The notes: a model not told the origin generated them from the sequence alone. Shown: positions 6,781-63,900, counted from the stretch's first letter. The stretch is 64,000 nt of DNA from Chiloscyllium plagiosum (GCF_004010195.1 NC_057718.1:40192101-40256100); one strand, 5' to 3'. Numbers and translations: made by a program.

Positions 6781-7292
6781 TCATACAGCACAGAAACAGA
6801 TCCTTCTGTCCAACTTGTCTATGCTGACCAAGTTTCCCAAACTAAACTAGCCTCACTTGCCTGTATTTGACCCATATCACATCTAATCCTTTCTTATTCA
6901 TGTACTTGTCCAGATGTCTTTTAGGTGCCTGTAACTGCATCTACCACTTCCCCTGGCAATTCATTCTAAACTGGAGCAGGAAAATCATTCCTGATGAAGG
7001 GCTTTTACCCAAAACATTGATTTTCCTGCTCATCGAATGCTGCCTGACCTGCTGTGCTTTTCCAGCACCATTCTAATCTAGACTCTGGTTTCCAGCATCT
7101 GCAGTTCTTGTTTTTACCTAATTCATTCCACACTCGAATCAACCAGTGTGTGAAAAAGATCCCTCTCAAGTCCCTTTTAAATCTTAATCCCCTCACCTTA
7201 AAAATATGCCCTCTAGTTTTGAACTCCCCTACCCTCCATTCCCTGTATCTAAGCCCCTCATGATTTTGCAAATCTTTGGAGAGAAAACAACA
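6781..7292 (-). mobile_element. CR1 3' fragment split by a Penelope-like insertion
   Basis: KTRGHIFKVRGLRFKRDLRGIFFTHWLIRVWNEL. Confidence 0.75.
6967..7119 (+). mobile_element. Penelope-like terminal remnant with decayed hammerhead, inserted in a CR1 3' fragment
   Basis: CATTC-CTGATGA-A-GGGC-TTTT-ACCC-AAAAC; 9-bp TSD AATTCATTC (6958-6966, 7120-7128). Confidence 0.72.
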
Positions 7293-7318
7293 GTTAATGC
7301 TTGGGATCCAATGGGACT

Positions 7319-7981
7319 GTTGTGGTTCTGTTCGCCGAGCTGGGAACTTGTGTTGCAGACGTTTCCTCCCCTGTCTAGGTGATATCCTCAGTGCTTGGGA
7401 TGTCATGTTGCTTGTCATCTGCGTGTGTGGCTACTAAGGATAGCTGGTCGTGTCGTTTCGTGGCTAGTTGGTGTTCATTGCTGTGGATCGTTAGCTGTCT
7501 TCCTGTTTGTCCTATGTAGTGTCCCAGTCCTTGCATGGGATTTTGTACACTACATTGGTTTTGCTCATGCTGGGTATCGGGTATCGACACGACCAGCTAT
7601 CCTTAGTAGCCACACACGCAGATGACAAGCAACATGAGTTCAACTGGGACAACACTACTATTATAGGACAAGCCAAACAGAGAACAGCCAGGGAATTCCT
7701 AGAGGCATGGCACTCATCCACAGATTCAATCAATAAGCACATCGACCTGGACCCAATATACCGACCACTGCAACGGACAGCTGGAACTGACAACCAGAAG
7801 CGGCAGAGACAAACCACTGTAAATGCCGAAGGAAACATCACAGAAGCGCTTCACAGGAGGCTCCCAAGCACTGAAGATGTCACCTAGACAGGGAACGAAA
7901 TGTCTGCAACACAAATTCCCAGCTCGGTGAACAGAACCACAATGAGCACCCAAGCTACAAATCTTCTCACAAACTTGGAAC
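7319..7981. mobile_element. Penelope-like element fragment: GIY-YIG endonuclease C-terminus with inverted 5' part and two hammerhead-bearing termini
   Basis: Minus strand SKTNVVYKIPCKD / HYIGQTGRQL; plus strand RHDQLSLVATH...REFLEAWHS; 7319-7400 is the reverse complement of 7862-7942; TSD ATCCAATG(G/T)GACT (7306-7318, 7982-7994); hammerhead-like motifs at 7355-7394(-) and 7868-7907(+). Confidence 0.88.
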
Positions 7982-10574
7982 ATCCAATGTGACTCTCTAG
8001 AACTGTTCCAAAGGAGAGTCATATTGGATTCAAAATGTTAATGTTGATTCTCTCCCCACAGAAGTTGCTAGGCTGGAGTAGTTTTTTACTCTTATTTAAA
8101 TTTTAGTGAATGATTGCTGAATTGATTGAAATATAGGGCCGATTTTAACTATCTGTAAGTGAATACACTTTGAGTTTAAATATCACCTATAGTGTTATTT
8201 TGGTGAGTTTTGCCAGCACTGTTTTTTTTATTTCAGATTTCCAGAGTCTGCAGTATTTTATTTTTATTTGTTTCTTCGTTTTCAATGCAATAAGATAAGT
8301 AATGGAATGAGAGAGAAACAAATATACATTTTACTTAATAATGTATTTAAAGCATTGCCCTGAATGTGATTAACATTAACTACACACTAAAACAGGAACA
8401 CAAAATAAATCAAAAGGAGAAGAATATTGTTCTTCTGACCAAGAATGATTTTTCCACTCCTTCCAAATTCCCTTGCATAAAATGCCCCTTTGCTTCCTCA
8501 ATTTTAAGGTTAACAAAAAGTGGCGTAACTTTGTATACCTCAAGGCATGAAAGTCAATCATTACAAATAAAGTTTTTAAGGACATTTAAACCGCTTGTGA
8601 CTATATCAATGAGAAAATAAAGCCATCTATAAGCCCACAGTAATGACATAACTTCATAACATGGATGTACATCTTATTTCTGAAACAACTGCATTATTTC
8701 ATTCACTGACAAATGTGTAGTCATGACCCTCCTCTATCGGCTGCTCAATTTCTCTTTCGATTTTGCCCCCTTTCCCTCCATCTGAATAGCTGCCTAACTA
8801 GCCAAAATAGTAAAAGTTACAAATATTTATTTTGTTGTATTTATTTAATTCTACACCTGTAATTGTTTTCAAATTTATTCATTTGAAAGGAAAAACTAGC
8901 TACTTTCACTGTGAAAAATCCACTTACTTTTCAGTTTGGTCAATCATGTAACAATTTACTGAAATGGAATTACATATCAAAGATATTATTTCAAATGACT
9001 CTCTTTGAAATATTTGAAACTCATGCTAGCTACACTGGGTATACAAAGTAACTTTATTAAATATTTGCAGTCTGGGTAATCATTAACTCACATTTATTAA
9101 CTTCACATCAGCCAAGGTCCATAGTACTTTTTAAAGAAAATACAAAAGTGAAATTTATTTTCCACTGCTTTCCATTTGATGCAAAATCTCCAAGCAATGT
9201 TTGCAGCTAAAGAAGAAATACAGCTGTATTGTATTTTCTCACTTCTCAGAATGAGGGCATCAGTGGAAAGCCCAGCAATTGTTGTCCATCCCTAGCAGAG
9301 ATGAGTGATTCGGTATAATTTGCAAGAAGGTTGGGACGGCAGCCATGGATCAACCACGATAGTCAAATAAAGGCCAGGTGAGGCAAAAACAAGTTTTATT
9401 CCTTACATTAGAGAATATGTTTTTTTAAATGACAAACAACAACTTCATGGTCACTTTTACTGATGTCAGCTACTTTATTTCCTGATTTCTTTTCAAATTA
9501 AGTTCAAAATCTCAGCCTGCTATGGTAAGATTTAAGTTCGTGCCCTCTGAAGTATGGACACTAAGTTTTGAAGTAAATTTTCTTTAAATGCAAGATGTAT
9601 TATTAGAGTTCAATTGACTAGATATTGTCACAATGTTGATAAAATCAGTTTGTAGCAGGTAAGGAGTCTGTTGCATAAGCATTTAAGTGCTTATACATCC
9701 ATTGTTTAAAAGCAGTCATGATAATGTAACTGCACTATAAAACTTGAAAGCAGTGTTTTGACTCTTAGCACAAATATTCCAAACCAAAGTTTTACAAAGC
9801 TGCAAAACCATGAAAGATAAACTATTGAAATGTATTAGAACTGATACAGCACACACTTCAGCAAAATGCAAGTTTATGTAGCCAAAAAATTAATCTTTTT
9901 GATTTAAGCAAAGAGCTGATCAGAAAAAAACACGGCTGTACGGGCACAGATCTAGGCGGAGTTCTAGCATTACATGACTTGCACTTGGTTTCAACAGCAA
10001 AGTGAATGATGTAATGCAGCGACCATGACACCAGCCAATGAGTTTATAGATTGATATTGACTGAGCAGAATGCTTATCTACTCTGGTAGAAACATTGCTG
10101 CAATAAACTGATGACTTGCAGATGGAAGTTGGAAGTAAAGTACTTATGGCCTTCCTCATGAATATCTTTTAAGGACCAAGAGTAGATCCAGACAGACAAG
10201 ATAAATTTTCAACAACGACGTGCTGCTTCTTCCTCCCCTGTTAAAGTGGATACACTAGTCACTAAGCAATCCGTTCTTCTGAAACAAGTAAGTTCTGTGA
10301 AAATTTCAAAGAACTGATCTTATTGCATGTGACAAGTATTTCATTTGTATATATTGAAAGAGAATGATTTCCAATGAATTTGAGGGTAAGCCTGTATTTC
10401 TAAATTCAAGAGATGTGTGAAGATCCCAGTATATACTATGGTCAGACTGTAAGTTACTTTTCAGATACCGCTGCTAACTATAGAACAAAAAAATACTTCT
10501 TCAACATTTCTTTGATTGTAAGGATTCTTTGCCTTACCTATTAAAAACAAATATATCATATAATAGTTCTAATA

Positions 10575-10790
10575 ATAAGTAAAGTTGCCACAGTCCTACC
10601 AGACAATAGGGTTGCCCTTTCAATAGAGAGAGACGATTGGTGCTACTTTAACCTGAGGTTCACCACACCTCAGGCAAGGGGAGAGGTTGAGAAGAGCACT
10701 TCATGGTAACCTCAGCCATGTGAAAATTGAACCCATGTTAGTGAAATTACTTTGCACCACAAACTGGCCAGCCATCTACTGAGCTAATCA
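10575..10790 (-). mobile_element. Second tRNA-derived SINE family (another copy at 47546-47735, plus strand)
   Basis: TTAGCTCAGT box A, GGGTTCAATT box B, and shared TGAGGTTAC(C/T)ATGAA body in both copies. Confidence 0.6.
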
Positions 10791-11858
10791 CCATTATAAT
10801 AATGGTGCTTCATAAAATAGAAAAAAAACTGCGTTGATGTACGTACTACTAGTTTTAATTTTACCATAACATATTAAAACTCCCAAATGCCAGTAAGAAA
10901 AGTTAAAGGGTTGATGATGTGTTAGATTAATTGCATTTTAATGGTATCACTTATATACCCTTTTATAGAAGAATTCATTGATTTCATTATACATATCCTG
11001 GCATGTATCAAGCTAAAAAATAGCTCAACAAACACTTCGTTCGAAACATCATGTGCATTGTTTGATCACGTAGGGCTTAAAATTCCCTCCCATGATTGTA
11101 ACACATTATCATGGAATGTGTTATTCTAAAGAATTAATTTTACTCCTTAGTTTGTTTAAGTAAAAATCTAGTTACTATTTGAAGAAACAGCTCAACTCAC
11201 TACCAGCAAATTCTTGAATCTCTTATCAAAGATTGGTACTGTTATATCAATCAGCTAACAATGCTTGTCCCTCTCTTGTTCCAGTTTTCACAGCTTAGTA
11301 TCAAACTTGGCTTTTAATGTCCCTGAAATATGAATCACCACATCCAGACTGTAGGAACTTTCATCACCATTGACGCAAATTTCTTTCTGGGATCTATTTC
11401 ATTTATTTTGCTGAACTGTTTTTACATTTGAACTTGGGTCTGATTATCTGACATTATAGTCATATTTAAGACTTACTATCTGTGAAAAAGATGTGGCTGT
11501 ATAATTTTATTTTCTCTGGGGTCTCAATTGAGATTCTTATTCAAAAAAGTTTCTCCTATTACTCCAAGTCATTCAGGATGCCATCCAAACATGTTAAAAC
11601 CAAATGTGTGATGGACAGTCAAATGAAAAGGCTAACAACTTTGCAAAGTATTCTTGTCCCTTTTATCAATGACTTGTTACAAATTACCATTTTCTACAAA
11701 TAAATATGTATGATAAATGATAATCTGTTTTAAACTGTTGATAACACTGTGTTTCTGTCATAGTTCAGCTTCAACAACAAAAGGAACAAATTCTTTGTCA
11801 TGATTGTGGAAGATTAAATTCACCTTGAAAAAAACTTTTAGGAAAACAAGAGAACAGC

Positions 11859-11938
11859 AGTGTGCATCAGGTGTAACAGCAACTCCATTTGGACGGAACT
11901 GGCTTCCAGTGGAGCTGCTGTTACTTTCGATGGGCACT
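11859..11938 (+). ncRNA. MIR194: pre-miR-194 hairpin; mature 5p 11872-11893, star about 11906-11927
   Basis: TGTAACAGCAACTCCATTTGGA differs by 1 nt from canonical UGUAACAGCAACUCCAUGUGGA; complementary arm CCAGTGGAGCTGCTGTTACTTT; basal stem AGTGTGCATC/GATGGGCACT. Confidence 0.95.
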
Positions 11939-12027
11939 AACATATCAAGGATCCCTTCCCTATTGAAGACACACTGTTTCTAGTCATTAACTGACCTAAT
12001 AATGTTGTTGATTTTCTATGAGGTTCA

Positions 12028-12113
12028 GGTGTACAGGAGTATGACCTATGAATTGACAGCCAGTGCAATTACAGATTTGCCTGTCAGTTCTATAGGCCAC
12101 TATCCTGTCCACT
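12028..12113 (+). ncRNA. MIR192/MIR215: pre-miR-192/215 family hairpin; mature 5p 12041-12061, star about 12080-12101
   Basis: ATGACCTATGAATTGACAGCC; complementary arm CCTGTCAGTTCTATAGGCCACT; basal stem GTGTACAGGA/TCCTGTCCAC; 90 nt downstream of miR-194. Confidence 0.95.
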
Positions 12114-14719
12114 ACAATTATACGAAGGTTAAATCCACACTTTGGGAACACAACTTATGTCTCTACTTTCTAAAATATATAAAGTAGAGATCTGAATTTA
12201 TTCCACTATAACAGTTCAAATGAACTTCTGTTCTTTTGCATTTTAAAAAAAACATGTTTGTAACTATTATTCCAACTACCTTGCAACGTGTTATTACAAA
12301 TATGTACTTCACAGTAATAAAACATGTAAACCAAAATTTTGCTTTTTGAATAATTCTCACAATAAATATGCAGCTAATATGATAAAGGGTATAACTTCCA
12401 AACTTGCAGATCAAGATTTTTCTTCAAAAAGGATTTGGAATAATGTCTCATTCTTCATGTTTCATATTTTAGCAATCTTGGACAGACAAGTATTTGAACA
12501 TATGCAAAATACAATTTTAAAAAGTACTATTTAAGTAGCAACTACACATATCAAAATTTACTGAAACTATAAAGTTAATATATCACTACTACACTTTCCA
12601 AAATGGTTGGTTTCTGTGCAAGTAATATTTTTGCTTCACTTTTAAATTGAATTAATTATTTTTCAAGTTCCAAATTTGTCCTGCTCACTTATGGAACAGT
12701 AATGAAAGCTTCTGAAAAATGGCTCATCTGTTTTGGCTCTAAAAGTACACTAGAGAACTTAAATAATGCTAAAAAGAGATATTTTGCTTTGTATTCAGTA
12801 GGACAAATGTAAAAATGCCAAATTTCAAACAATTTGTATTGCAGGATAACTGCAAAGTGCTGAATAGTTGGAAAGTTAACGATGATTGATTAAGGTGTTG
12901 ACATGGAGGAAGCAGTGGGATACTTTAGGGTCCACAAGCTCCTGAGTATTTCAAAAACGACACAGGTTTGAACATATTCTTCATATTGGCAGAGAACAGG
13001 TCCCTTTGTACAAACCTATGTCACTTCTCGCAAGTATAATTGAGCAATTTTACAAATAGGATTGAATATCCAGGACTGGCTGTCACTAGCTGACTCGAGA
13101 ACTTATAAGTCAGGTTGCTCACAAACATTTCCAAATTTCAGCTGAAAATTCATAATTAAGGATGGTTCCTGCATCTGGTACCACCTAACAATGAAGTTTG
13201 CCACAAGGGCTATTATAGTTCAAAGATAAAATTCATATAATGAGGTGTGGCTTCATGTCACTGGAGGAAATGTCACCACTTTAAGTTGCGGGACACTGCT
13301 GAGTTTCCTTGCTGAGTAATCTCCAATAATACAATCCATCGAAAGCCCTTTAGTAGTCACAAGGAATTAAGATACATTTAGGTGGTATAATAGCCTTGCA
13401 CATTGAAAGTGACAAATAATCAGTTTTTACAAAGATATTTTAAGACATGACTTTATCTAAACTGAACATTTAGAAGAAAAACAGCATATTAGTTAAATAT
13501 CTTAAAATCACTACCAAATCTATTGAAATCTTACAATACAATGACAAATTTCCTCATTTTACATCTTTACTGAGAACATTTGCCAGGAATTCTCAAGTCT
13601 AGAAATCAAAATAATGAATAGTATGATTTTCAAGAGCAAGTTTTATTTGACCAATCTCTGATTTATTTGAAGAGGTAACAGAACAGACAAGGGTAGAATA
13701 GCAGATTCAATTCATCTGGAATTTCAGAGGGCCTTGCATAAAATATTAGATAAAACACTAATGGACAAGATCAGAGCAAGTGGAAACACGGAACAAACAA
13801 ATTGTTAGCTAGTTGGTTGCAGGCAAAAAGCAGACAGTAGAAGCAAAGGATAGCTGTTCAGAAGATAGATGCGCACCACAAGGATCAGTGCTCATCAAGG
13901 CAAGTGTTGCTGTGAAGAGCAGAGGACAGTTTTGTGTTAAAACCAATAAAATGCTTACAAAAATACTCAAAAATAAAAATGAGGTGAGACGTTTGGAGCT
14001 TTAAGGTACAAGGATTGCCATCGGGCCTTCCTGAAATATTCGGATAAAGTGGAATGATTTTTAAGCTCACACGAGGTTTTAACTTAACACGGCTGGATGA
14101 AAGGAGTCTACTAAAAACCTGGAGTAATTTTGAGCTTTTCCTGTAATGATTCACGTCTGCCAGAAGAATGGTGCGAGCAAAAGGGGTTGCAGATCCCCTC
14201 AATAACATGTATTCCTGAAATGAAGGCATAGTCAAAGGGAATGGTTTTGGGAAGGTATACAGATTGGTACTGAAACAAGGAAAGAAGTTACAAGGTACAT
14301 GGGCTTGATGTTGGTCAAGCATCTGTTCATAAACGATTAAAGAATAAATATCAGACATGTTGGAGTAAAAGATGCTGTGCACAGAGTCATGAAAGTTAGA
14401 TAAGAATAACTATGGAAGAACAAGTGAGGCAATGATGATATCTGAAGACAAGGCTAAGGATTTAAACACTATTTCTTTCCCACAAAGAGAACCAGTGGAG
14501 ATTTGCAGAATTCTGAAGTCATTAATTACGTACATAACGGTTATAAATGCAAAGGTTGTACTGTGTAGCCCAATAAAGTTATTTTTTCCATTGCATGTCA
14601 AGGATTTCTTGAATGTAGATCCTTGCTAGACAGCAGAAGATAGACTGATGAGGTAGTTAATTTTAAAAAACATGACAGCTAATTACAGGTCAATTGCAAT
14701 ATCATCTGTCAGAAATAAT

Positions 14720-15029
14720 ATAAATAAGGAAGATGGCGCCAATTTTCAGGATTAAGTGAGAAAGATTTACAAGTAACTAGCACACATTTCATAAACAAAA
14801 ACAGATGTTGCTGGAAAAGCTCAACAGGTCTGGCAGCTTCTGTGAAGGGAAATCAGATCTGGGGAAGGGTCACCGGACCCAAAACGTTAACACTGATTTC
14901 TCTTCACAGATGCTGCCAGACCTGTTAAGCTTTTCCAGCAACATCTGTTTCTGTTTATGAAATGTGTGCTAGTTACTTGTAAATCTTTCTCACTTAATCC
15001 TGAAAATTAGCACTATCTTCCTTATTTAT
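14720..15029. repeat. 310-bp inverted repeat centred on a Penelope-like terminus
   Basis: 137-bp arms 14720-14856 / 14893-15029 with 7 mismatches by my count; loop holds CTGGGGA-A-GGGTC-ACCG-GACCC-AAAACGTT. Confidence 0.9.
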
Positions 15030-16056
15030 TGGGGTTTTTTTAGTTCTTATTTAATAAACACTTCAAATCGAATGATAAGAGCTCAAAAACCTCAGAATTC
15101 ATGGAAAAGGTCAGCAAACCCAATACGTAGAGGATTTGCAATGCAGAAAGGATGTTGGGACTTTGGAAAAGCTTTTGACAAAAATATTACAGGGCACAAT
15201 TAAGGGAATTGAAAAGTGGGCTAAAAACTGGTTAGATAAAAGTAAGAGTAGGAGATAAAAACAAAAACAAATTTCTGCAGAAGCTGGGATTCTGAAATAA
15301 AACCAGAAATGACCTAAAATACTCAGCAGGTCCCTGCCAGTTACAAAGAGTGTTTAAAGAATGGTAGGAAGTAAATAATGCCGATTCAAACTGTTCAATT
15401 CCTGGTATTGTGCTGCTCAGCTGGAATTATTTGCTTGAAGGCTAAATAGCAAAATGGACTGTTTGGTCTGAATAGCTTATATGTGTCGTGATTTCTATAT
15501 ATTTTTGTTCACTGACAAAGCTAGAAACTGTGACCTTAGAGAAAAGTTAAAGAGTGTTCATGATAGTTATAATTTGTATCTGCAATCACAGCCCACAAGA
15601 CAGAAATTTCAAGAACAAATCTGCAAACAATTTAATATAGAGGTAAATAAACTTATGAAGTTTTTCTAAATTCAAAACTTTTAATGTATCTCAAAGGATT
15701 AGAGAATGCATTTCCCAATTAACCAAACCCAATGACCTCCACTTTTTTCCATAGCCACGTAGAATGTTAGTCATGACAAAGAGCGGATTGCACGATGACT
15801 GATCAAAGTCCCACAAAAGCAATCCAACAGCGTCCATGTATTAATGCACAGACAGATCTCGGTTAGATAACAAGATTACCTGTCCAATTGTAACATTTCA
15901 AAGCTTAGATTACCTTGTAATAATGTTTCCACTTTTGATTTGTTTTAACATGTCAGAATGCCATGGTGCTTCACATAACACATTAACTTTTGAACAGCAA
16001 TGAGGGTCATATAGGCACATGCACTTAACAAGTGAAAACAAGAACGATGGATTTGA

Positions 16057-16164
16057 AAATCAGAAACCAAAACAGAAATTGCTGGAAAGACTCAGAAGGT
16101 CTGGCAGCATCTGTGAAGAGAAATCAGAGTTAACATATCAGTTCCAGGGACCCTTCTTCAGAAC
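16057..16164 (-). mobile_element. Penelope-like terminal remnant with decayed hammerhead
   Basis: Minus strand GTT-CTGAAGA-A-GGGTC-CCTG-GAACT-GATATGTT-AAC plus the shared GATGCTGCCAGACC tail. Confidence 0.65.
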
Positions 16165-30069: not shown

Positions 30070-30224
30070 TTAGGCGAGAATGAGGACTGCAGATGCTAGA
30101 GATTAGAGTCGCGAGTGTGGTGCCAGAAAAGTACAGCAGGTCAGGCAGAATCCGAGGAGCAGGAAAATCCTGCTCCTCAGATGCTGCCTGACCTGCTGTG
30201 CTTTTCCAGCACCACACTCTTGAA
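30070..30224. mobile_element. Fold-back Penelope-like tail remnant, hammerhead core deleted, inserted in a LINE
   Basis: Hairpin centred on GAGGAGCAGGA-AAA-TCCTGCTCCTC; TSD TGAAGTA(G/T)GTAT (30058-30069, 30225-30236). Confidence 0.72.
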
Positions 30225-37226: not shown

Positions 37227-37434
37227 AAATAAAAACCGAAAGAACTGCGGATGCTGTAAATCAGAAACAAAACAGAAATTGCTAGAAAAGCTCAGCATCT
37301 GGCAGCATCTGAGAAGAGAAACTAGAGTTAACGTTTCGGGTCAAGGGACCCTTCCTCAGAAAGGTTAACTCTGATCTCTTTCCACGGATGCTGCCAGACC
37401 TGCTGAGTTTTTCCAGCAATTTCTGTTTTTGCCC
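37227..37434. mobile_element. Fold-back Penelope-like remnant inserted in a CR1
   Basis: Inverted arms around a hammerhead core; imperfect 12-bp TSD TTTATCTTCACT / TTTATCCCCACT (37215-37226, 37435-37446). Confidence 0.75.
37327..37361 (-). ncRNA. Minimal hammerhead motif with intact core and GUU triplet
   Basis: Minus strand TT-CTGAGGA-A-GGGTC-CCTT-GACCC-GAAAC-GTT-AAC; perfect 5-bp stem II; stem I truncated to 2 bp. Confidence 0.7.
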
Positions 37435-40030: not shown

Positions 40031-40375
40031 ACCTTGACAAAGTTAGTAAGAGAGGAATCCTGGCTGATTATTGTCCTCCAAGTCAACAAACATAAAGCAG
40101 AATTTCAGCATCCTTCCAGCAACCAAACAAGTATCAACTAGTGATTTGAACCATTAACACTCATCTTAAGTTAACTGGTGGGACATACAGTTTGTCAAGG
40201 TAACTGATAATTACTGAAGGATTGAAAGCAACTGTTCACTTGCTGTTCAAATGTCAACCTAGATAAAGTAGTATTGTCAGGCTGTTCACTCACAGTATTA
40301 GAAATGCTTAACATATACTTAAAAATGTGTTGCTGGAAAAGTGCAGCAGGTCAGGCAGCATAAAAGGAGAAGGAG

Positions 40376-40411
40376 AATCGACGTTTCGGGCATAAGCCCT
40401 TCTTCAGGAAT
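40376..40411 (-). ncRNA. Minimal type-I hammerhead motif, mirror copy, sense to IARS2 pre-mRNA
   Basis: Exact reverse complement of 40645-40680. Confidence 0.75.
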
Positions 40412-40644
40412 GAGGAGGGTGTGCCAAGCAGGCTAAGATAAAAGGTAGGGAAGAGGGACTTGGGGGACGGGCATTGGGAATGCGATAGGTAGAAGGAGGT
40501 TAAGGTGAGGGTGATAGGCCAGAGACCCCCTCTCCAGCCTATCTCCCTCACCTTAACCTCCTTCTACCTATCGCATTCCCAACGCCCCTCCCCCAAGTCC
40601 CTCCTCCCAATCTTTTATCTTAGCCTGCTTGGCACACCCTCCTC

Positions 40645-40680
40645 ATTCCTGAAGAAGGGCTTATGCCCGAAACGTCGATT
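40645..40680 (+). ncRNA. Minimal type-I hammerhead ribozyme motif (predicted cleavage after 40676)
   Basis: ATTC-CTGAAGA-A-GGGC-TTAT-GCCC-GAAAC-GTC-GATT: core intact, 4-bp stem II, palindromic ACGU stem III, weak stem I. Confidence 0.75.
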
Positions 40681-40951
40681 CTCCTTCTCCTTTGATGCTG
40701 CCTGACCTGCTGCGCTTTTCCAGCAACACATTTTTAAGCTCTGATCCCCAGCATCTGCTGTCCTCACTTTCTCCTTTACTTAACATATAGCCTTTATATA
40801 AAAGGCAGTGCATAACAAAGCACCAACCACTCTCCATTCTACCTATATTTTTCCCTAGATTTGATACACCGTTATTTAATGAGCTGCATCCCCAAGCTGA
40901 ATCTGAGCCAAAACTCCTACAGCGAACAATACTAAATTTGTGACACTCTAC

Positions 40952-44145: not shown

Positions 44146-44370
44146 TGGAGAAAGTGAGGACTGCAGAGTCTGGAGATCAGAGTCAAAAAGTGTTGTGTTG
44201 GAAAAGCACAGTGGGTCAGGCAGCATCCAAGGAGCAGGAGAGGCGATGTTTCAAGCATAAGTTCTTTATCAGGAATGTTGGGGATGAAAAGCTTATGCTT
44301 GAAACGTGGACTCTCCTGCTCCTCAGATGCTGCCTGACCCGCTGTGCTTTTCCAGCACCGCACTTTTTGA
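44146..44370. mobile_element. Fold-back Penelope-like remnant with decayed hammerhead motifs
   Basis: Inverted arms; TSD CAGTTGG(G/A)TGCT (44134-44145, 44371-44382); stem II AAGC-TTAT-GCTT before GAAAC. Confidence 0.78.
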
Positions 44371-45832: not shown

Positions 45833-46635
45833 AAAAACTGAAAGAACTGTGAATGCTGGAATGCAGAAACAAAAATAGAAATTATAGATGGTGTAATTTC
45901 TATCCATGTACCTCCTTCCTCCTCAGTATCCAAGGACCCAAACACACCTTCAAGGTGGAGCAGTGCTTTAAGTGCACTGCATAATCTAGTCTATTGCATT
46001 TGCTGCTCACAATGTGGTCTCCTCTACATTGGGGAAACAAAAGTTTAGACTGGGTGACTGCTTTGCAGAACACCTAGTTCTGCCCGCAAAAAAGGCCCTG
46101 AGCCTCCACCTGCCTGCCACTTCAATACACCATTGTGTTCTCTGGCCAACATCTCTGTCTCAGGTTTGCTGTAGTGCTCCAGCGAAGGTCAGTGCAAGTT
46201 GGAAGAACAACACCAAATTTTTCGCTTGCGACCCTGTAACCTTCTGGACTCAACAAGTACAATAACTTTAAGGCTTGAACTGCCCCATGTCTTTACTCTA
46301 ACCCCAACACACCAGGCCTTACTGTCACATAGTCTGCCATTGCACACAACCTATTGTTAGCAACTAACAGTCCCCAGTAATAGCTATTTACACTCCGAAC
46401 AAGATCGTTATCCACTCTGTAGTCTGTCCAATTGTTCTTCTTTCTCTTTGGGCTTTATCCCAACCTAGAATTTACTCCTTACCGCCTCATCCAACCCTAT
46501 CTTCTCCATATAAAACAACATTTCCTAGCTACCATCAGTTCTAAGGAAGAGTCACTCAACCTGAAACGTTAACTTTAATTCTCTCCATAGATGCTGCCAG
46601 ACCTGCTGAGCTTTTCCAGCAATTTCTGTTTTTGT
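45833..46635 (+). mobile_element. Penelope-like element 3' fragment: GIY-YIG domain, 3' UTR, decayed hammerhead, short inverted tail at the 5' end
   Basis: NLVYCICCSQCGLLYIGETK (45983-46042), frameshift, then RLGDCFAEHL; AGTT-CTAAGGA...GAAACGTT-AACT at 46537-46574; 14-bp TSD TTCATT(A/C)AAGGCAT (45819-45832, 46636-46649). Confidence 0.88.
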
Positions 46636-46874
46636 TTCATTCAAGGCATGTTTATTATCAGGAATACTGATTAAACAATATTGTCTGGTCAGTTCCAATT
46701 GCCATGTTCACCCGAGCATATCCCTTTTTATGGAAAATGAACAAACTCATCATGACCAATTAAATTTTGCAATTGTCTTTCAAACAACTTTTCCCTTTCT
46801 CTGATACTTTTTAATCTCATTCATTACATTATAAGAATGATTTCCTTGATATTTCTTTTCGAAAGCAGCATCCA

Positions 46875-47326
46875 GATAGAGTCATAGAGATGTATAGCAC
46901 AGAAACAACTTGACCATACCAACCAGATATCCTCGATAAATCTAGTCGCATTTGCCAGCATTTGGCCCGTCCTATTCGTACACCCATCCACATGCCTTTT
47001 AAATCGTTTTATTGAACCAGCCTCCACCACTTCCTGTGGCAACTCACTCCATAAATACACCACCTTCTGTGTGAAGAAGTTGCCCTTTAGGCCCTGTTTA
47101 AATCATTCCCCTCCCACCTTAAACCTTTGCCCTCTAGTTTTGGACTCTCCTTCACTGGGGAAAAGACCTTGTCTATTTGCCCTATCCATGCCCCTCATGA
47201 CTTAATAAACCTCTTATAAGTTTAGCCCTCAGCCTTTGATTCTCTAGGGAAAATAGCCCCAGCCTATTTGCCTCTTCCTACAGCTAAAACTATCCAACCC
47301 TGGCAATATCCTTGCAAATCTTTTCC
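46875..47326 (-). mobile_element. CR1 3' fragment
   Basis: VYLWSELPQEVVEAGSIKRFKRHVD. Confidence 0.8.
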
Positions 47327-49770: not shown

Positions 49771-50965
49771 AGCAACTGTTGATCAGGGCAGTTACAGATT
49801 TCAGCAACAACTTTCATTTCCCAACTGGAGAAAGTTCAGTTGCGTGCATGTCCGTAATGCTTTATTTTTTTTTCTCTCTTATCTCTATTGTACTTTTGGA
49901 CAGGGTTTTTTTTTACAATCTGTTCCTGCCATGCTTACTGTTATCACACCAGATATTACGATTGTGTTTGGAGTGGCGTTAAATCGAACTTGCATTTACA
50001 TTAACCCCTCATTTACATTTCACACATTAATTTATTTGAAAATGGCAGCACGATTCAATGTGCAGCCTCTCACTTTGTGTAAAATTCCTTAACTGGTTCT
50101 TAGCAAAACAAGTAAAGCAGTGTTGAGTGGTGTCTAATTGCAATTGATCGCTCTTGATTTGATGCAGCTTAGTTTTTTAAACCGGTAATTTAACAGAATT
50201 AAACAAAAAACTTGTTTTTTCCAAGCTAGACCTTGCTCTGACCTTTGGCATGCACCAATACATGCTGTGAAATTCCTTGTACTGTAGATATATGTAGTGA
50301 CAAGCATTCTGGAGTGAATCACTAGATATCCAGTCACCTTGTGTTTTGCTGATAAAGGAGAAAAACATGCGAGAAAAAACAATCGTGCATTATTGCCTCG
50401 GTCTCTACATTTATTTTTGAATTATGTTTTGTTTTCCTGAAGGCCTTCACTCCTTTTAAGATACACTTTTGGGGCACTGATGTGTTTTTCTGCCTAGTGC
50501 CCATTCTGCGTGAGCCTGAACTGTGGTTGGAAGCAGGTTAACCAACTATGGAGGACATAACAGAGGAACCCAGCCTTCCTACCTGATGTCCACAGACTTT
50601 GAATTTTCCTGCAATGAGTGCTGAGTCTAGTTGTAGCTCCTAAGATGCTGCCCTGACTGAGATCAGCAACTTGGTGCAATCAAAGGAATCAATACCTGGG
50701 ACTTTCTGGCTTGTAAGAATAATTTTAAGATGTTTTGAATTATATAGCTTGGGGAGATATCCATTATGTAATGCTGCCTGCCAGTTCTACAACTGCCATA
50801 AAAATACATAACCAAATCTTTGAATTTTTTGTATAATTACATGCTTTACTTCATAATGTATTGCATGTCTAAAGTTCGTAGTAATTTATAAATCTTTGCA
50901 TAGTTATCCAATGGCAAAGTGTAGAATTATTAATATTTGCATAATGTCTGTCATTGGATTGATTT

Positions 50966-51319
50966 AAAAGCAAATTACTGCGGATGCTGGAATCTGAAAC
51001 CAAAAGAGAAAATGCTGGAAACTCTCAGCAGTTCTGGCAGCATCTGTAAGGAGAAAAAAGAGCTGATGTTTCGAGTCTAACTGACCCTTTGTCAAAGCTG
51101 CATTTTCTCTTTTGGTTTCAGATTCCAGCATCCGCAGTTTTTATCCAGTGTTTAACCCACTGCCACCTCTCTTGCAGGAATACCTACCCTGAAGAATTAC
51201 TGCTCTTCTCTCCGACAGAGCTTTGACAAAGGGTCAGTTAGACTCGAAACGTCAGGTCTTTTCTCTCCTTACAGATGCTGCCAGACCTGCTGAGATTTTC
51301 CAGCATTTTCTCTTTTGGT
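50966..51319. mobile_element. Rearranged fold-back Penelope-like remnant with two variant hammerhead motifs
   Basis: Perfect 13-bp TSD ATTGGATTGATTT (50953-50965, 51320-51332); inverted copies of the ...GATGCTGCCAGACCTGCTGAG...TCCAGCA tail. Confidence 0.82.
51217..51259 (+). ncRNA. Hammerhead motif with U3-A8 variant core, sense to BPNT1 pre-mRNA
   Basis: AGAGCT-TTGACAA-A-GGGTC-AGTTA-GACTC-GAAAC-GTC-AGGTCT; second copy on the minus strand at 51059-51099. Confidence 0.7.
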
Positions 51320-52584
51320 ATTGGATTGATTTTCTTGACACTTTATTTTTTATTTCTTTGTGTATATGTAGCAGCCAAGGCTGTTTCAAGCATGTTGCAC
51401 TTGACACTTTGGAAAATTGTTTTCCACGTGAATGAATTTGAGAGTATTTTTAAAAATCTTATTTTTCTTTTGTTCCAGTGGTTGCAGCTTTTCTTGTGGA
51501 ATAAAGTTTTTTTGGGGTTGAAAATGCATCCTATAATGCATGACACCAAGTTTGCAGTATGGCTAATTGGTCAATTCTATGTCTGGCTTTCATTTCTTTG
51601 TATATCATTTCTCATGAGAGATTTACAAATGTTTTCTGCTGGTCATCTGGCAAGTTTTGAAAATTCAGTTACCAAATGGTTATCTGTAAGATTCTTGCTA
51701 GAGAGAGACTGACTTCAAATCTTGCTCCATAGAGTCACATTGAGGCCATAGCTTATAATAACATCAAAATAGTTTGCATGTGAAATATTAGTGGTAATTT
51801 AATTTGTTATCATTGAAAAGTGAGAAAAAAGTCCATGAGGGAAGTGTGTCCTCTAAATTTTTAAAATACTAATAATTGACCTCATTTGATGCTGCAAACA
51901 TAAGTGTATTTTTTTCTATTCAGCCTGTTAAGGGTTGCAATCACATTGCTCTAGAGCAAGTGGGACTTTAACCCAGGTCTCTTAATCCAGAGGTAGGAAC
52001 ATAACCATTGTACCACAAGAGTCCTATATATATTGGAATAATTTGGAGCACCTATTGAGAAATCTTCCCTTTGTTCCACATCATCTGTTTTCTCTCAACA
52101 TAAATGTCGTCCTTCGTGTTTTTGCATAATTTTTGTAAATTTTCTTTGCACCCTTTCCAAGGCTTTGATGTACCTCTGAGTCCTTGTCACTTCTCTAACT
52201 GAGATCTCACAAATAATTTATAAAGGTTTTGCCAGAGTAAGTAAGAAGAAACTGTGTCAACGAGCAGGCAGCTAAATCATAGATTTAAACTAAATGGCAG
52301 AAGAACCAGAGGGGAGCTGGAACAAAATTTTAAAGGAGCGAGTTGTTATAATTAGGAATACTGCCTTAATAGAAATTGGATATATATTTAATTAGGAAAA
52401 TGCAGGGCAATGGGGAAAGAATTGCTGGGGAGAGGAGAAATGAGTTTTGAAAATTTAGCTAATTCAGTTTAATTTCTTTGGTTCAAGTTAGTAACCCGTA
52501 CACATACTGCCCTGTCCCAATAACATGGCGTAGATTGTGAACTTGTATAGGGACTAGCTGTCATGGAACATATTACAAGTAAGT

Positions 52585-52684
52585 AATACAGAAAATGCTG
52601 GAGAAACTCAGCAAGTCAGGCAGCATCTGTGAAAAGAGAAACAAAATTAATATTTCGCATCCAGTCTGACTGTTCTTCAGAACT
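52585..52684 (-). mobile_element. Old Penelope-like terminal remnant about 50 nt upstream of BPNT1 exon 2
   Basis: Minus strand AGTT-CTGAAGA...GAAATATT-AATT plus the shared tail. Confidence 0.6.
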
Positions 52685-53290: not shown

Positions 53291-53409
53291 TCTTGAGAGG
53301 TTAAGTAGATATTGTTGACCTTTTACTTGTTTCCATCCCAACTCCCTTGCACATCCATTCCAGTGAAAGATATATTCATACAAGATCAATGGAAGAACGT
53401 ATGTAGTGA

Positions 53410-57985: not shown

Positions 57986-58034
57986 ATCGTGGTTTGGGTC
58001 GATCCACTTGATGGCACAAAGGAATACACCGAAG
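57986..58034 (+). CDS. BPNT1: BPNT1 coding exon 4 (metal-binding DPLDGT motif of the inositol monophosphatase family)
   Basis: IVVWVDPLDGTKEYTE+G|gtaagc; 49 nt. Confidence 0.97.
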
Positions 58035-58602
58035 GTAAGCATATGCTCATTTTAATATCATCTGGGTTCATCTTTTGTATTTTTCATGATGTTATCAAAC
58101 AGAAAGAGAAATGTAAAACCAAGGAAATTATTAGACTCTAAACCACTTGAAGTGGATAGACCTACATTAATGAACTCTTGGATGTTTTATCCAGACTACG
58201 CTCCACCTGAGGGAAAGTTTTGGCTTTTGGGTGCCATAAAATGTCGTCATGTTTCTTCTACCTCTTGTACAATATATGTTGACTGCAAATACTAAATATT
58301 CTATTTTTCAGTTTGGGGTAGAGAAAGGCCAGCAGCTTATCTATTAGAATATTTCTTTTCTTATATCATAATTAAATTAGTTAGTGTTTGCTTTCATGAT
58401 TAAGTCAGATTTGCTGAAACACACTTTGGGTTTGATTTTGTTTCAAGTTACCCCTTGAATTAACTTCTTAAAAAAATTTTATTTTGTTCCATGGTGAATA
58501 TTCCAAGAGCTCTTGGCTAACATGGACAGGTATCTCTTTCAATGAGCAGCTGAATTCACTTTTGATTTTAGGCTTAAACTAATTGAATGTTTTGATCTGC
58601 AG

Positions 58603-58694
58603 GCCTCTTGGATCATGTGACTGTGCTTATTGGAATTGCTTATGATGGTAAAGCAATAGCTGGTGTAATCAATCAGCCATATTACAATTATCAG
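58603..58694 (+). CDS. BPNT1: BPNT1 coding exon 5
   Basis: (G)[30 protein letters not shown]|gtatga; 92 nt, phase 1-0. Confidence 0.97.
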
Positions 58695-58740
58695 GTATGA
58701 TCTTTAAAAAGTGAACTTTTTTTTTCAAATCCAGCTGTTT

Positions 58741-59040
58741 TAGATTAGATTACTTACAGTATGGAAACAAGCCCTTCGGCCCAACAAGTCCACACCGACG
58801 CGCAACCCACCCAGACCCATTCCCCTACGTTTAACCCCTTCACCTAACACTATGGGCAATTTAGCACGGCCAACTCACCTAACCTGCACGTTTTTGGAAT
58901 GTGGGAGGAAACCAGAGCAAACCCACGCAGACACAGGGAGAATGTGCAAACTCTACACAGAGTCGCCTGAGGCGGGAACTGAACCTGGGTCTCTGGTGCT
59001 GTGAGGCAGCAGTGCTAACCACTGTGCCACTGTACCGCCC
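58741..59040 (-). mobile_element. HE1-like SINE
   Basis: High similarity to 3164-3490. Confidence 0.85.
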
Positions 59041-59890
59041 ACTATTTTTGAAGGCTCTTGCCGAGCAAACTGATCATCTCAATAATAGAGCAATGTGATT
59101 GAATGTTATTGAATGCAATTTGGTACTCTTCTTTTTCCATCATAGATAGTGACTTATCGGCATCAGTATCTACTAATGTGTTTGCCACCTTTTTTCACTC
59201 CTGCCATTCACAATCTTTTCACTTGAACGTAGCTGCTCATAAATTATTAAAGTTGCTGAGGCAATTTCATAACAAACTTATTTTGAAAGTTCATCGAGTT
59301 GAGTCATTAACTTTGATTCTCGCTGCATGGATGCTCACTGACCTGTTGTGTTTCCAGCGTCTTCTCTGTATGATTTGGAGCATTAGCTTAATTTTACAGC
59401 TGATTTATGCTCCTAGTCCCAGTTGTGCTGATGAATAGAGAGGAATAAAGAACCAGTGGTCCAAGTCTGATTTAAAGCATTTTTTTATCTGTTGGTGGAA
59501 GCCCAAGACCGATTTATTTTCAGATATTGATATAAAGAACTGACAAAACATCATCAAAAATTATGTTAAACCTTTGACAAGCCTAAAAGTGTGCTATTGT
59601 GTGTAACACACAAGCAGTGATTCATACTTTTGCTTCCTCAAGTCTGAAGAAATAAATTTTACATGGGTCTTTTTGAAGCAGTTTTTGTCCACTACAGCTT
59701 TCTTTTCAGCACATACTGGTTCAAGGAAAAACTGGAGAAAATTGCTTCTTGACTTACTTACATTCAGCATAGTAAATGATTAGAATGTGAAATGAGTGAA
59801 AATTAATTTCAGAAAGAAAATTATATGCCAGAAGAAAAATGCTAATTTTGTGTGTAATGTATTACTTTTGAAAGCATAATTTTCTTTCAG

Positions 59891-60088
59891 GCTGGAGCTG
59901 GTGCTGTTCTTGGTCGGACCATTTGGGGTGTTCTGAATCTTGGAGTGTTTGGAATTCAATTGAAGGAAGTGCCAGAAGGGAAACATATCATCATTACAAC
60001 TCGTTCCCACAGCAGTAGGCTGGTAAATGACTGCGTCTGTGCGATGAACGCTGATGAAGTAATAAGGGTTGGAGGAGCTGGTAACAAG
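59891..60088 (+). CDS. BPNT1: BPNT1 coding exon 6 (gene continues beyond the right edge)
   Basis: [21 protein letters not shown]...[10 protein letters not shown]...[10 protein letters not shown]|gtactt; 198 nt. Confidence 0.97.
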
Positions 60089-61069
60089 GTACTTATTGAA
60101 GCAACATAATATTTAAATAATTTTGAGAATGTCATTTTTAAGTTTTGTTACATAAATTTTACTTCATTTTAACCTTTCTTTGGGCCACAGCGATTAAAGC
60201 ACATGGTCAAAAATCTTGTTCAAAAGTGTAGCTTTCAAGTAGTATATTAAAGGTGGGGGAAAGAGAGGCAGCGATGTCTTTGGAGGAAACTCCAGATCTT
60301 GGGGATTTGGTTGCTGAAGGCATTGGAGTAATTAAAATTGGGAATGTTCAGGAGTCTAGCCTTAGAAGCTCAGAAATCTTGGAAAGTCATGGGTCTGGCC
60401 TTTGTGAAAATTGGAAACGAAAGATCAGAAATTTGAAATAGAGGCAATGTGTGACGAGGAGCTAGTGTAGGTCAATGAACATGAGGATGCTAGGTGAATG
60501 AGTAGCAGGATTGGATGATCTTAAGTTTGTGGAAAGGAGACAATGGCAGATTATCTGGCAGTTGATTAGAATACTCAAGTCCCGAGGTCATTAAATCCAT
60601 GGGTGAGGGTTTCAGCAGCAGATAAGCTGAAGTGGATCAGAGATGGGTGATATTATGAGAGTGGAAATTGGCAGTCCTAGTTATGGCATGGACTTGTGGT
60701 TGAAATATCATCTTGGAATATCAGCTATGCCACTGACATTATAAACAGATGTAAGACAGTTTCCAAGGAGTGGAAGTCGATGGCCTAACAGTTTGTGGCC
60801 TGTACTTTGTGACGTCTTACTTCCCCATGTTTGGATGGTGGATGTTCAGCTCAATACTGGATGACGGCCTGGCAATTTAGAAGCAGTGGAGAGGTCAGGT
60901 GACATAGAGCTGTCAGTATACATGTGGAAGATGATAGGTTTAGGCTTCTGTATTTGAATGGCAACATTTAGATGAGAAACAAATACGCAAAAGATTCTTG
61001 GGGGACATGAGAAGTAACAATTCTGGAGTGGGGAAGAGAAGTCATTGCAGGTGATTTTTCTAATTATAT

Positions 61070-63900
61070 GAAAACTTAAGAACAGGAGTAGGCTATTCAG
61101 CACATTGAGTATACTCAACCATTCAATAAGATCATGGCTGATCTGATTATGGCCATAGATCCACTTGATTCCCTTGCTGATCAGTAATTTGCCGAACGTA
61201 GCCTTGAATATATTCAATGACTCAATTTCCACTGATCTCTGAGATAGAGAATTTCATAGATGATTGATCCTCCTGATCACAGTTTTAAATAATGTCCTCT
61301 TATTTTTAAATTATGCCTCCTAGTTCAAGATTCTCTAGTTAAGGGAAGCATCCGCTCAACATCGATTCTGTCAAACCCCATCAGAATTTTGTATGTTTCA
61401 GTATGAACACCTTCATTACAAATAGAAATAGGCCATTTGGCCTCTTAGGCCTGCTTTGCCATTCACTAAGATCATGGCTGATTTGTTTATATTTTGAATT
61501 CCAAGTTGTCATCTATCGCCCATAATCTTTGATTTTCTTGTCTAGTAAGAATTTGTCTACCTTCAACTTAAAATATTCAGTAATTCCCAGTTCCACCATC
61601 TTACAAGGAGTTCCAGTGTTGCACTCCCTCTGTCCTAAAAGGGTAACCCCAGATTCTTAATCAGCCCCCTAGTTCTGAACTCAGCCACAAGAGGAGATAT
61701 CCCTTCTATGTCCATGTTGTCAACACAAGTAAAGATCTTACACACCAGTCAAGTTTCACCTCACCCTTCTATATGCAATGGAAATAAGCTCAGTCTGTCT
61801 GTTTCCTCATGACAAACCCTGTATTTCAGTTATCACTCCAGTTGAACTTCTCTGATGGGTTGCAACACATTTACAGCCTCCTTTTGTCATGACTCTGAGG
61901 TAGTGCATTGGAAAGCAAGCCTCACTATTTGTGGAATTGTCACAATGTGAAAATCTGATTCATCCATTGAATTGCTTAATTTTACATATCTGTCTAATTT
62001 AGATTATATTTCCTGCTTGCCAGTTTGTTGGAATCTTTCCAATATCCAGTGAATTTTGGAACATTATCAGCAACTACTAGTTGCTAACTAATTAGCCATC
62101 TCTTTTCGGACCCAAGGAGGAAGTCCATCAGGACCTGGGTACTTAGCCTGCAATTCAATTAGTTTGTTCATCACTGCTTTCACTGTGATTGTATTTTCAC
62201 TGAATTCCTGTCTCCAGTTATTACTGGAATGTTTTTGTATCCTCACTGGTGAAGAAGGCAAGATGCTTATAATTTTAGCCACCATTTCCATGTTATCTAC
62301 TACTGACATCCCATTCTTACTCTCAAACTTCTCTTGACTGACTTTCCTTTCCAATACCAGTAGAAATTCTGGCCATCTGTTTTTACATTTTCTAGCTAGC
62401 TTCCTCTCATTTTATAATTTTGTTTCTCCTGATCATTCTCTGCTATTCTTTCTCTGCTGACTAATTATCTGATCTGACCCTCATATTTGTGTAATCATAT
62501 GCTTTTCCTTTAGTTTGATGTTTTCATTTACACCTTTAATTATTTATAGATGATGGATCTTCTGCTTAGAGTTTCTCTTTATGGTAAGAATAATATACTT
62601 ATTCTGGGTTTCCAGAAATATCACTTTAAATGTCTGTCACAAATGATCTAACTTTTAACTTAGTATCTCAGTGTGCTCTTATTAATTCAGGGTTTCACAT
62701 CCATTATTACTTCAATTTATAATTCTAGTCTTAGACCCGCTCTTCTCCCTTCCAAACCGGGTATAAAATTCAATTATGTTTTGATCACTGCTGTCTAGGG
62801 CTGTCTACTCTGACATCATTACTCCTGTTACATTACACAGTGATAATTTCTTACAGCAGCATTTCTGAAACAATCTCGGAAATATTGGTTGAACTCCTCA
62901 AGCAGGCACCTATTTCAAATTTTGCCAGTTTATATGTAGATTACAATTTTTTGTGATTATTGTGTCTTTTTTTTAACACAAGTACTCAATATTTCTTATA
63001 GTATACTTTATCCCACATTGTCGCTACTGTTAGGGGCCTGTTGATCACTCCCACTAATGACAACTTTCCCCTACTAATTCTCATGTCCACAGAAACCAAT
63101 TCTACATCTTGATCTACTTGACCAAGGTGGTCTCTAACCATTGTGCCAGTGGCATCCTTGATTATCAATGCTATCCTTCTACTCTTACTGAGCTTCCTAT
63201 TTTTCTTCAGTGTCTATGATATGGAGGAGCTGGTGTTGGATTGGGATAGACAAAGTTAAAAATCTCACACCAGATTATAGACAAATAGGTTTATTTGAAA
63301 GCACAAGCTTTCGAAGTGCTGCTCTTTCATCAGTAGTTAGTGGGGCAGGATCATAGGACACAGAATTTATAGTAAAAGATCAAAATGTCATGCAACTGAT
63401 TGAACAAATCCAGATTGTTGTTAAATCAATCAAAATCTATATCCCCATTCTAAGTGATTAAAGACTTAACAGCAATCTAGGTTTGTTCAATACATCACAT
63501 CATTTGTATGACACTTTGATCTTTTACTATAAATTCTGTGTCCAATGATCCTGACCCACTAGCTACCAGATGAAGGAGCAGCGCTTGAAAGCTTATAATT
63601 TCAAATAAACCTGTTGGACTATAACCTGATGTTTGTGAGTTTTAACTTCTTCAATGTCATATGTCTCGTAATATTCAGGACCCAATCTATGTCATTTTGC
63701 AGCCCACCTATATCCCTGTAAAGAATGTCAAATGATAGTGCACATTGAAGTAAATAAATATCAATTCATTTAACTTAAGGATACTATGTGCATTCAGATA
63801 CAGAACCTTTAACCTTGTCTTCTCATTATCTTTGTTACATGTAATCTTGACTGCTAGTGTATTGTATTAATAATAGAGATTATTACTGTTGATGTTTCCT
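61070..63900 (-). mobile_element. Highly decayed CR1 fragments
   Basis: KYPGPDGLPPWVRKEMA, VGVINRP; CR1 3' hairpin tails at about 61075-61140 and 61425-61480. Confidence 0.6.
63215..63646. mobile_element. Fold-back Penelope-like remnant with two decayed hammerhead motifs (GAAAGCTT type)
   Basis: Long imperfect inverted arms (about 63253-63425 / 63465-63648); TSD TTCTTCA(G/A)TGTC (63203-63214, 63647-63658); CTGATGA...GAAAGCTT on the minus strand near 63302-63333. Confidence 0.75.

What the first reader, a model, noticed from the sequence alone, without database searches (positions are those of the whole stretch)
6967..63646. Window-wide population of minimal hammerhead ribozyme motifs in about five Penelope-like families, with covarying stems
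Seen: at least 12 loci share the layout stemI-CTGANGA-(extra A/T)-stemII-GAAA-NN-T-H-stemI, while the stems differ in sequence yet stay paired. Stem II variants are GGGC/GCCC (40657), AAGC/GCTT (about 44290), GGGTC/GACCC (37338-37351), GGGTC/GACTC (51231) and GAGC/GCTT (about 63575). Stem I variants are GCA/TGC (7868), AGTT/AACT (46537) and AGAGCT/AGCTCT (51059-51259). Stem III has no loop and is a 4-nt palindrome, ACGT in most families and AGCT in another. Two loci (7319, 45833) link the motif physically to GIY-YIG coding sequence. Known: Penelope-like elements carry minimal type-I hammerheads thought to cleave as dimers (Cervera and de la Pena 2014). Inference: this genome holds a large, diverse ribozyme-bearing retroelement system that repeat annotation could easily mislabel as SINE. 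The class is known; whether these shark families are described I cannot tell.
Basis: partly seen in the sequence, partly recalled or inferred. Interest (0 to 1): 0.8.

Follow-up and report, generated by a model that had tools for sequence, protein, structure and literature searches.

The report
Penelope retroelement hammerhead ribozyme relics
The window holds 16 tail-end fragments of Penelope-like jumping genes, each carrying a minimal hammerhead motif that is predicted to cut RNA only when two copies pair; this kind of element is already described, most copies here are worn, and the genome holds an unusually large number of them.

Summary
The window has 16 loci homologous to minimal type-I hammerheads (min-HHR), in five families. 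Only 3 keep a fully canonical core (37330-37359, 40380-40407, 40649-40676). A fourth (51223-51253) matches its family's commonest form, which has a U3-A8 core. The rest are decayed, mostly at CpGs.

Genome-wide, intact-box motifs number about 167,700: 139,532, 6,166, 20,839 and 1,151 in four pattern searches, against 585 control matches for the first. Families differ in helix I, helix II, the helix III palindrome (ACGU or AGCU) and the C3-G8 core pair (U3-A8), yet all stay paired.

The motifs lie downstream of GIY-YIG coding remnants. Insertions show the Penelope-like element (PLE) signature: an inverted 5'-truncated twin, 9-15 bp target duplications, and a roughly 36-nt tail on one side only.

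This is the class described by Cervera and de la Pena (2014), and the scan has reached the same reading on other windows of this genome. New here are the genome-wide family counts, the U3-A8 and AGCU shark families, and a sharp clustering of 5' ends 1-6 nt upstream of the ribozyme core. Rfam's hammerhead models miss all copies. RNA reads show no ends at the cleavage site. Cleavage remains inferred.

The parts
6991..7018 (+). F1b min-HHR relic. Box 1 is intact; G12 is changed to A, 16.2 G to A, and one helix II pair is lost. The tail motif follows at 7036-7054.
   Evidence: (40.7 bits)
7358..7391 (-). F4 min-HHR with both boxes intact and the 10.1-11.1 closing pair lost. It is the inverted partner of the copy at 7871-7904.
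7495..7887 (+). Open 130-aa frame, the C-terminal GIY-YIG part of an F4-type PLE ORF. It runs into the hammerhead; the stop codon lies in loop II.
   Evidence: its relative L104 aligns to P0011 across that protein's Pfam GIY-YIG domain
7871..7904 (+). F4 min-HHR with both boxes intact. 15.2 C is changed to U, which breaks the ACGU palindrome, and one helix II pair is lost. Helix I is GCA/UGC.
14859..14888 (+). F2 relic (A6 to G, G12 to A) inside a larger palindrome, 14729-15020.
   Evidence: (19.1 bits)
16132..16161 (-). F2 relic. Box 1 is intact and box 2 is lost.
   Evidence: (16.5 bits)
30113..30219 (.). Fold-back made of two tail ends only (52-nt arms, 90% complementary), with no hammerhead.
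37330..37359 (-). F2 min-HHR with a canonical core (GGGUC/GACCC, ACGU, H17 = U). The copy is cut 4 nt upstream, so the 5' strand of helix I is missing. It sits in fold-back 37269-37429.
40318..40775 (.). Young fold-back insertion of F1a. Arms are 208 nt, 95% complementary, 5 nt apart. The flanks carry an 11-bp target duplication, CTTAACATATA. The right side alone carries the extra tail.
40380..40407 (-). Intact F1a min-HHR on the left arm.
   Evidence: 69.4 bits
40649..40676 (+). Intact F1a min-HHR on the right arm: CUGAAGA-A-GGGC-UUAU-GCCC-GAAACGUC.
   Evidence: 69.4 bits; the exact 30-mer occurs 30,936 times in the genome
44245..44272 (-). F1d relic (G8 to A, 16.2 G to A).
44281..44308 (+). 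F1d relic. Box 1 is cut short and H17 is G. Helix II is AAGC/GCUU.
45920..46324 (+). Broken GIY-YIG coding remnant (3 stops, read with X) of a second PLE type.
   Evidence: no Pfam hit; E=3e-4 to the GIY-YIG motif of P0011
46541..46570 (+). F2 relic (G5 to A) about 220 nt downstream of that remnant. Helix I is AGUU/AACU. The tail follows at 46590-46608.
   Evidence: (32.6 bits)
51065..51095 (-). F5 min-HHR with a U3-A8 core. 16.2 G is changed to A, which breaks the palindrome.
   Evidence: (44 bits)
51223..51253 (+). F5 min-HHR identical to the family's commonest form: UUGACAA-A-GGGUC-AGUUA-GACUC-GAAACGUC. Helix I has one mismatch. The insertion, about 50960-51320, has a 13-bp target duplication, ATTGGATTGATTT, and a long tail on the left side only.
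   Evidence: (42.9 bits)
52649..52680 (-). Heavily worn F2-like relic with a tail at 52609-52627.
   Evidence: (16.3 bits)
63305..63333 (-). F6 relic with both boxes intact, the AGCU palindrome, and helix II weakened.
63567..63594 (+). F6 relic (U4 to A, 3' strand of helix II shortened). It is the inverted partner of the copy at 63305-63333.

Best explanation
These loci are 3'-terminal fragments of several families of endonuclease-bearing Penelope-like retroelements (PLEs), each carrying a minimal type-I hammerhead that is predicted to self-cleave only when two copies pair through the 4-nt palindrome that stands in for helix III.

Shown directly:
- the motif anatomy;
- its conservation and family-level covariation across about 167,700 genomic copies;
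- its place downstream of GIY-YIG coding sequence and about 60-100 nt from the element's 3' end;
- the PLE insertion signature: an inverted 5'-truncated twin, variable target duplications, and a one-sided tail of about 36 nt.

Inferred:
- The insertions were made by target-primed reverse transcription starting at an internal site near the 3' end.
- The ribozyme likely processes PLE transcripts, possibly helped by the element's own protein.
- The short units of about 90-130 nt that start 1-6 nt before the core are likely run-off copies of an RNA whose 5' end lies there.

Most copies in this window are dead relics.
For: Abundance. CTGANGA-N9-16-GAAACGTY gives 139,532 matches against 585 for the reversed control. 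The exact F1a 30-mer gives 30,936 against 0. F4 gives 6,166, F6 20,839 and F5 1,151, each with control 0.

Structure, from the commonest form of each family:
- Helix II: GGGC/GCCC, GAGC/GCU(C/U), GGGUC/GACCC, GGGU/ACCC, GUCACCU/AGGGGAC, GGGUC/GACUC, GGAGC/GCUCC.
- Helix I: AUUC/GA(U/A)U, AGUC/GACU, AGUU/AACU, GCA/UGC, AGCU/AGCU, CAC/GUG.
- Helix III palindrome: ACGU, or AGCU in 98 of the first 100 F6 matches although those two positions were left free.
- Core pair: U3-A8 in 93 of 100 listed F5 matches, C3-A8 in 7, and G8 in none, although Y3 and R8 were allowed.

Prediction borne out. From two worn window copies I predicted the F4 helix II, and it turned out to be the genome's commonest form.

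Formal pair count on 89 model hits. 89.7% of cells are paired against 82.9% in shuffles (0 of 500 reach it). The covariation score is 0.380 against 0.257 (0 of 500). Slid partners pair in at most 50.4% of cells. 4 of 8 pairs change on both sides.

PLE link. GIY-YIG remnants lie upstream of the motif in the window and in L045, L048 and L104. The L104 frame aligns at E=2e-28 to P0011, which has RVT_1 and a GIY-YIG domain above Pfam's cut-off.

Insertion anatomy. It is seen in 30 F1a loci and in the window and matches passages in PMC8557442 and PMC11167929.
Against: No cleavage is shown.
- In raw single-cell poly(A) RNA reads (run X21, about 2% of the run read), 1,097 reads cover the F1a unit in both orientations. 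97% of them run on into unlike flanks, and no pile of read starts or ends lies at GUC|G. This looks like passive co-transcription.
- The monomer fold is no more stable than shuffles (z = -0.24) and forms helix II only.
- Helix I of the commonest family is weak: 2 bp, a U.U mismatch, then 1 bp.
- Direct head-to-tail pairs, which a dimeric ribozyme would need in cis, are rare: 68 at 55-85 nt spacing, against about 31,000 copies.
- Rfam's hammerhead models score nothing.
- Pfam does not recognise the window's own GIY-YIG remnants. The L104 frame reaches only E=0.18.
- Published assays report low activity in vitro (PMC4209133). In one PLE, insertion in vitro did not need the ribozyme (PMC11167929, passages).
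- The covariation count rests on related copies and on an alignment fitted to the model, so independent events are few, at the level of families.
Confidence: 0.85

Rival explanations
1. The hammerhead-shaped module is kept mainly as a structural handle for the element's reverse transcriptase or another protein. On this view it is not a working self-cleaver in vivo, and cleavage is vestigial or incidental.
For: No read ends lie at the cleavage site. Copies are almost never in direct tandem. Helix I is weak in the most successful family. Ribozyme mutants did not affect in vitro insertion in the Anolis element, and no RNA-seq ends were seen at its cut site (PMC11167929). PMC8557442 raises the idea that hammerheads may merely parasitise PLEs.
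Against: The exact catalytic boxes are kept in six families that share little other sequence. The C3-G8 tertiary pair covaries to U3-A8 in F5, and the helix III palindrome covaries from ACGU to AGCU in F6. These are features of the catalytic fold rather than of a generic hairpin.
Confidence: 0.25
2. The commonest copies (F1a, F5) are a separate short non-autonomous element. It would be a SINE-like or retrozyme-like unit of about 90-130 nt that begins at helix I and borrows PLE enzymes, rather than randomly truncated autonomous copies.
For: Of 30 F1a copies, 21 share at most 6 nt of sense sequence upstream of C3, 1 shares 9 nt, and 8 extend at least 43 nt, so the lengths fall into two groups. 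All 12 F5 copies share at most 11 nt upstream. Read depth steps up sharply at about 40645 and is nearly flat to the tail. In fold-backs both arms stop at the same point.
Against: Short and long F1a copies carry the same diagnostic downstream sequence, so they may come from the same master copies. No promoter or RNA 5' end was shown. Tandem arrays typical of retrozymes are rare. This reading is compatible with the main explanation rather than opposed to it.
Confidence: 0.3
3. The hairpin-shaped loci are MITEs, that is, deletion derivatives of a DNA transposon with terminal inverted repeats.
For: Eight regions of the window show inverted arms. Rfam gives sub-threshold plant-miRNA hairpin hits on them.
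Against: Arm junctions differ from copy to copy. Target duplications vary between 9 and 15 bp. One arm alone carries the extra tail. Single-arm copies are common. The same sequence continues upstream into RT/GIY-YIG coding sequence.
Confidence: 0.02

Closest known systems
Minimal hammerheads (min-HHR) in the terminal repeats of metazoan Penelope-like elements (Cervera and de la Pena 2014, PMC4209133; main text read)
   Same: [quoted passage not shown]
   Different: The copy number is far higher than the roughly 4,000 (coelacanth) and 9,000 (Xenopus) reported there. The families are from a shark-type genome, which my searches did not find described. Activity was not tested here.
U3-A8 core variant of Schistosoma Cercyon PLE hammerheads (same paper)
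   Same: The F5 family carries UUGACAA, with U3 and A8 in place of C3 and G8.
   Different: It is in a vertebrate genome, with a different helix II and the tail module shared with F1 and F2. Here it is the fixed state of a family with about 1,150 intact copies.
Insertion units of endonuclease-bearing PLEs: pseudo-LTR, adjacent inverted 5'-truncated copy, 30-40 bp 'tail' (Craig et al. 2021, PMC8557442; Frangieh et al. 2024, PMC11167929; passages read)
   Same: Inverted twin, one-sided tail of about 36 nt, target duplications, and a 3'-end bias.
   Different: Most copies here are stumps of about 90-450 bp. Direct partial tandems (pseudo-LTR, ORF, pseudo-LTR) could not be examined, because the long candidates read N.
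Non-LTR retrozymes of animals (Cervera and de la Pena 2020, PMC7229834; Li et al. 2026 preprint 10.64898/2026.07.22.740005; passages and results read)
   Same: Short non-coding units with a type-I hammerhead that co-occur with PLEs. Up to 120,000 copies are reported in the axolotl.
   Different: Retrozymes are head-to-tail tandem repeats of 150-450 bp with canonical hammerheads that give circular RNAs. Here the units are dispersed, single or inverted, and minimal. Direct tandems are rare (68) and there are none in the window.
Drosophila virilis Penelope hammerhead (PMC4209133)
   Same: A very short helix I (2 bp), as in the commonest shark family F1a.
   Different: The D. virilis motif has a bulge in helix II and a 2-nt helix III insertion, which these lack.

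Membership tests
min-HHR of metazoan PLEs | Catalytic boxes CUGANGA (or the U3-A8 variant) and GAAA at hammerhead spacing | tested here: met
   3 canonical loci and 1 U3-A8 locus in the window. Genome: 139,532 against 585 control.
min-HHR of metazoan PLEs | One unpaired nucleotide between A9 and 10.1, and a G10.1-C11.1 closing pair | tested here: met
   The extra nucleotide is A in F1, F2, F3, F5 and F6, and U in F4. G-C closes helix II in the commonest form of all six families.
min-HHR of metazoan PLEs | No helix III hairpin; 15.1-16.1 form a 4-nt palindrome that allows a dimer | tested here: met
   ACGU in F1-F5. AGCU in 98 of 100 listed F6 matches, with the two middle positions left free.
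min-HHR of metazoan PLEs | Helices I and II kept through compensatory change between families | tested here: met
   Family table. Pair count: 89.7% paired against 82.9% in shuffles, and 4 of 8 pairs changed on both sides. Caveat: the rows are related and the alignment is fitted to the model.
min-HHR of metazoan PLEs | Self-cleavage, as dimers | not testable with these tools
   RNA reads show no ends at the site. No assay was possible.
Endonuclease-bearing Penelope-like elements | [quoted passage not shown] | tested here: inconclusive
   Only C-terminal remnants were seen. Pfam gives nothing for the window pieces and GIY-YIG at E=0.18 for L104. Homologues carry RVT_1, and P0011 also GIY-YIG at 25.9 bits against a 22.6 cut-off. 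L104 aligns to P0011 at E=2e-28, and an adjacent frame aligns to its RT start at E=2e-8. Long frames in the genome read N.
Endonuclease-bearing Penelope-like elements | Insertion unit with an inverted 5'-truncated copy, target duplication, and a 30-40 bp tail on one side | tested here: met
   30 F1a loci. Window: 40318-40775 (11-bp duplication) and about 50960-51320 (13-bp duplication), with one-sided tails.
Endonuclease-bearing Penelope-like elements | Hammerhead in both flanking pseudo-LTRs of a full-length unit | not tested
   No full-length unit could be read.
Rfam hammerhead families (types I, II, III, HH9, HH10) | Score at or near the family's gathering threshold | tested here: not met
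   No hammerhead hit at E<=10 on the whole window, nor on a 71-nt slice around the intact copy.
Non-LTR retrozymes | Head-to-tail tandem arrays of hammerhead-bearing units | tested here: not met
   No such array in the window. The genome has 68 direct pairs at 55-85 nt spacing, against 30,936 exact copies.
MITE | Fixed terminal inverted repeats and a fixed-length target duplication | tested here: not met
   Arm junctions and duplication lengths vary, and the tail is one-sided.

The most novel reading that the evidence does not exclude
The dominant amplified form is not a random stump. It is a defined RNA unit of about 90-130 nt that begins 1-6 nt before the ribozyme core and ends at the tail. 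It would arise when the PLE reverse transcriptase starts internally at the tail and runs off the RNA's 5' end. On this reading the hammerhead-headed unit is a self-contained, PLE-driven, SINE-like element. It has reached more than 10^5 copies, a denser hammerhead load than any I read of in print, and includes a vertebrate family fixed for the U3-A8 core.
Probability: 0.25. Interest if true: 0.55.

Novelty: new member of a known kind. Interest (0 to 1): 0.3.

Why it matters
Family-level covariation. It adds independent support, from a cartilaginous-fish genome, that the minimal hammerhead fold is under selection in PLEs. The C3-G8 to U3-A8 switch and the ACGU to AGCU switch in the palindrome are consistent with the catalytic fold and with the dimer model.

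Annotation. Roughly 167,700 intact-box motifs in 3.56 Gb are invisible to Rfam, and short units may be filed as SINEs or hairpins. Gene models can also absorb PLE pieces: one named kinase isoform is 94% identical to the PLE frame over 58% of the query.

Open question. The sharp 5' boundary in two families gives a testable handle on how PLE RNAs begin and how the reverse transcriptase ends.

Nothing here changes the known picture of the class.

Tried and rejected
- DNA similarity search of the own genome with the F1a unit found nothing, because very common words are skipped. I used patterns instead.
- Rfam at gathering and at E<=10 gave no hammerhead. The only hits on the fold-backs were sub-threshold hairpin miRNA families.
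- Pfam on 25 window frames gave only an RVT_1 at 3434-3862(-), which is not PLE-like, and a weak Arc_MA hit.
- Pfam and NCBIfam on the GIY-YIG remnants gave nothing or sub-threshold hits.
- Long 'open frames' reported by the protein search proved to be runs of N: L103, L107, L108, and parts of L099, L102 and L106. I did not look for other routes to those stretches, so full-length architecture and pseudo-LTR pairs remain unseen.
- The look-up of sequencing runs listed no RNA holder. The contig rows are only guessed to be RNA.
- Run X22 laid 0 reads, which is no test.
- MAFFT misaligned F6 by one column. The model was therefore built without F4 and F6 and does not detect them.
- Chance was rejected by the control counts. 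The MITE reading was rejected as set out under rival explanations.
- Supplementary figures of PMC4209133, which hold species lists and alignments, were not opened. They may include cartilaginous fishes.

Full report
Setting. The window is vertebrate DNA: mir-194 and mir-192 lie at 11858-12108. It sits at contig 9, 40,192,101-40,256,100, of a 3.56-Gb genome.

Noticed in passing
window 11858-12108 (+): The mir-194 and mir-192 precursor pair scores above Rfam's gathering thresholds (75.2 and 78.6 bits). The window therefore lies in a conserved vertebrate miRNA cluster locus.
   Followed up: no
window 14690-15040: The palindrome around the F2 relic extends at least 65 nt beyond the element's tails into what looks like flanking DNA (128-nt arms, 95% complementary). 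The fold-back here includes more than the retroelement.
   Followed up: partly
L111:1477-1626; L113:1468-1571; other places listed: Rare short head-to-tail arrays of hammerhead-containing units (49 nt x 3.0, 27 nt x 3.9, and arrays with units of about 44-54 nt). These are the only natural contexts seen in which two sense ribozymes sit side by side.
   Followed up: partly
proteins P0001, P0002, P0007-P0009: Outside sharks, the closest named relatives of the F4 PLE frame are flatworm proteins (Opisthorchis, Clonorchis, Sparganum, Dicrocoelium) at about 45-51% identity. This could reflect sampling or horizontal transfer. It was not analysed.
   Followed up: no
protein P0003: A Chiloscyllium punctatum entry named as a MAP3K7 isoform is 94% identical to the PLE frame over 58% of the query. 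It is probably a gene model that has absorbed a retroelement piece.
   Followed up: no
window 3434-3862 (-): A reverse-transcriptase frame (RVT_1, 30.6 bits) shows no similarity to the PLE reverse transcriptase. It is probably a LINE remnant.
   Followed up: partly
window 46824-47102 (-): A weak, sub-threshold Arc_MA (gag-like) hit at E=0.0017, just downstream of the PLE 3' end.
   Followed up: no
L104:2686-3303 (-): One open frame joins the end of a Neptune-type GIY-YIG domain directly to the start of a PLE reverse transcriptase (YGLPKVHK...). This looks like one PLE inserted next to or into another.
   Followed up: no
runs X1-X20: Near-identical 31-nt words of the F1a unit are held by runs under four coded organism labels in 8 studies. 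The family is likely shared by several related species.
   Followed up: no
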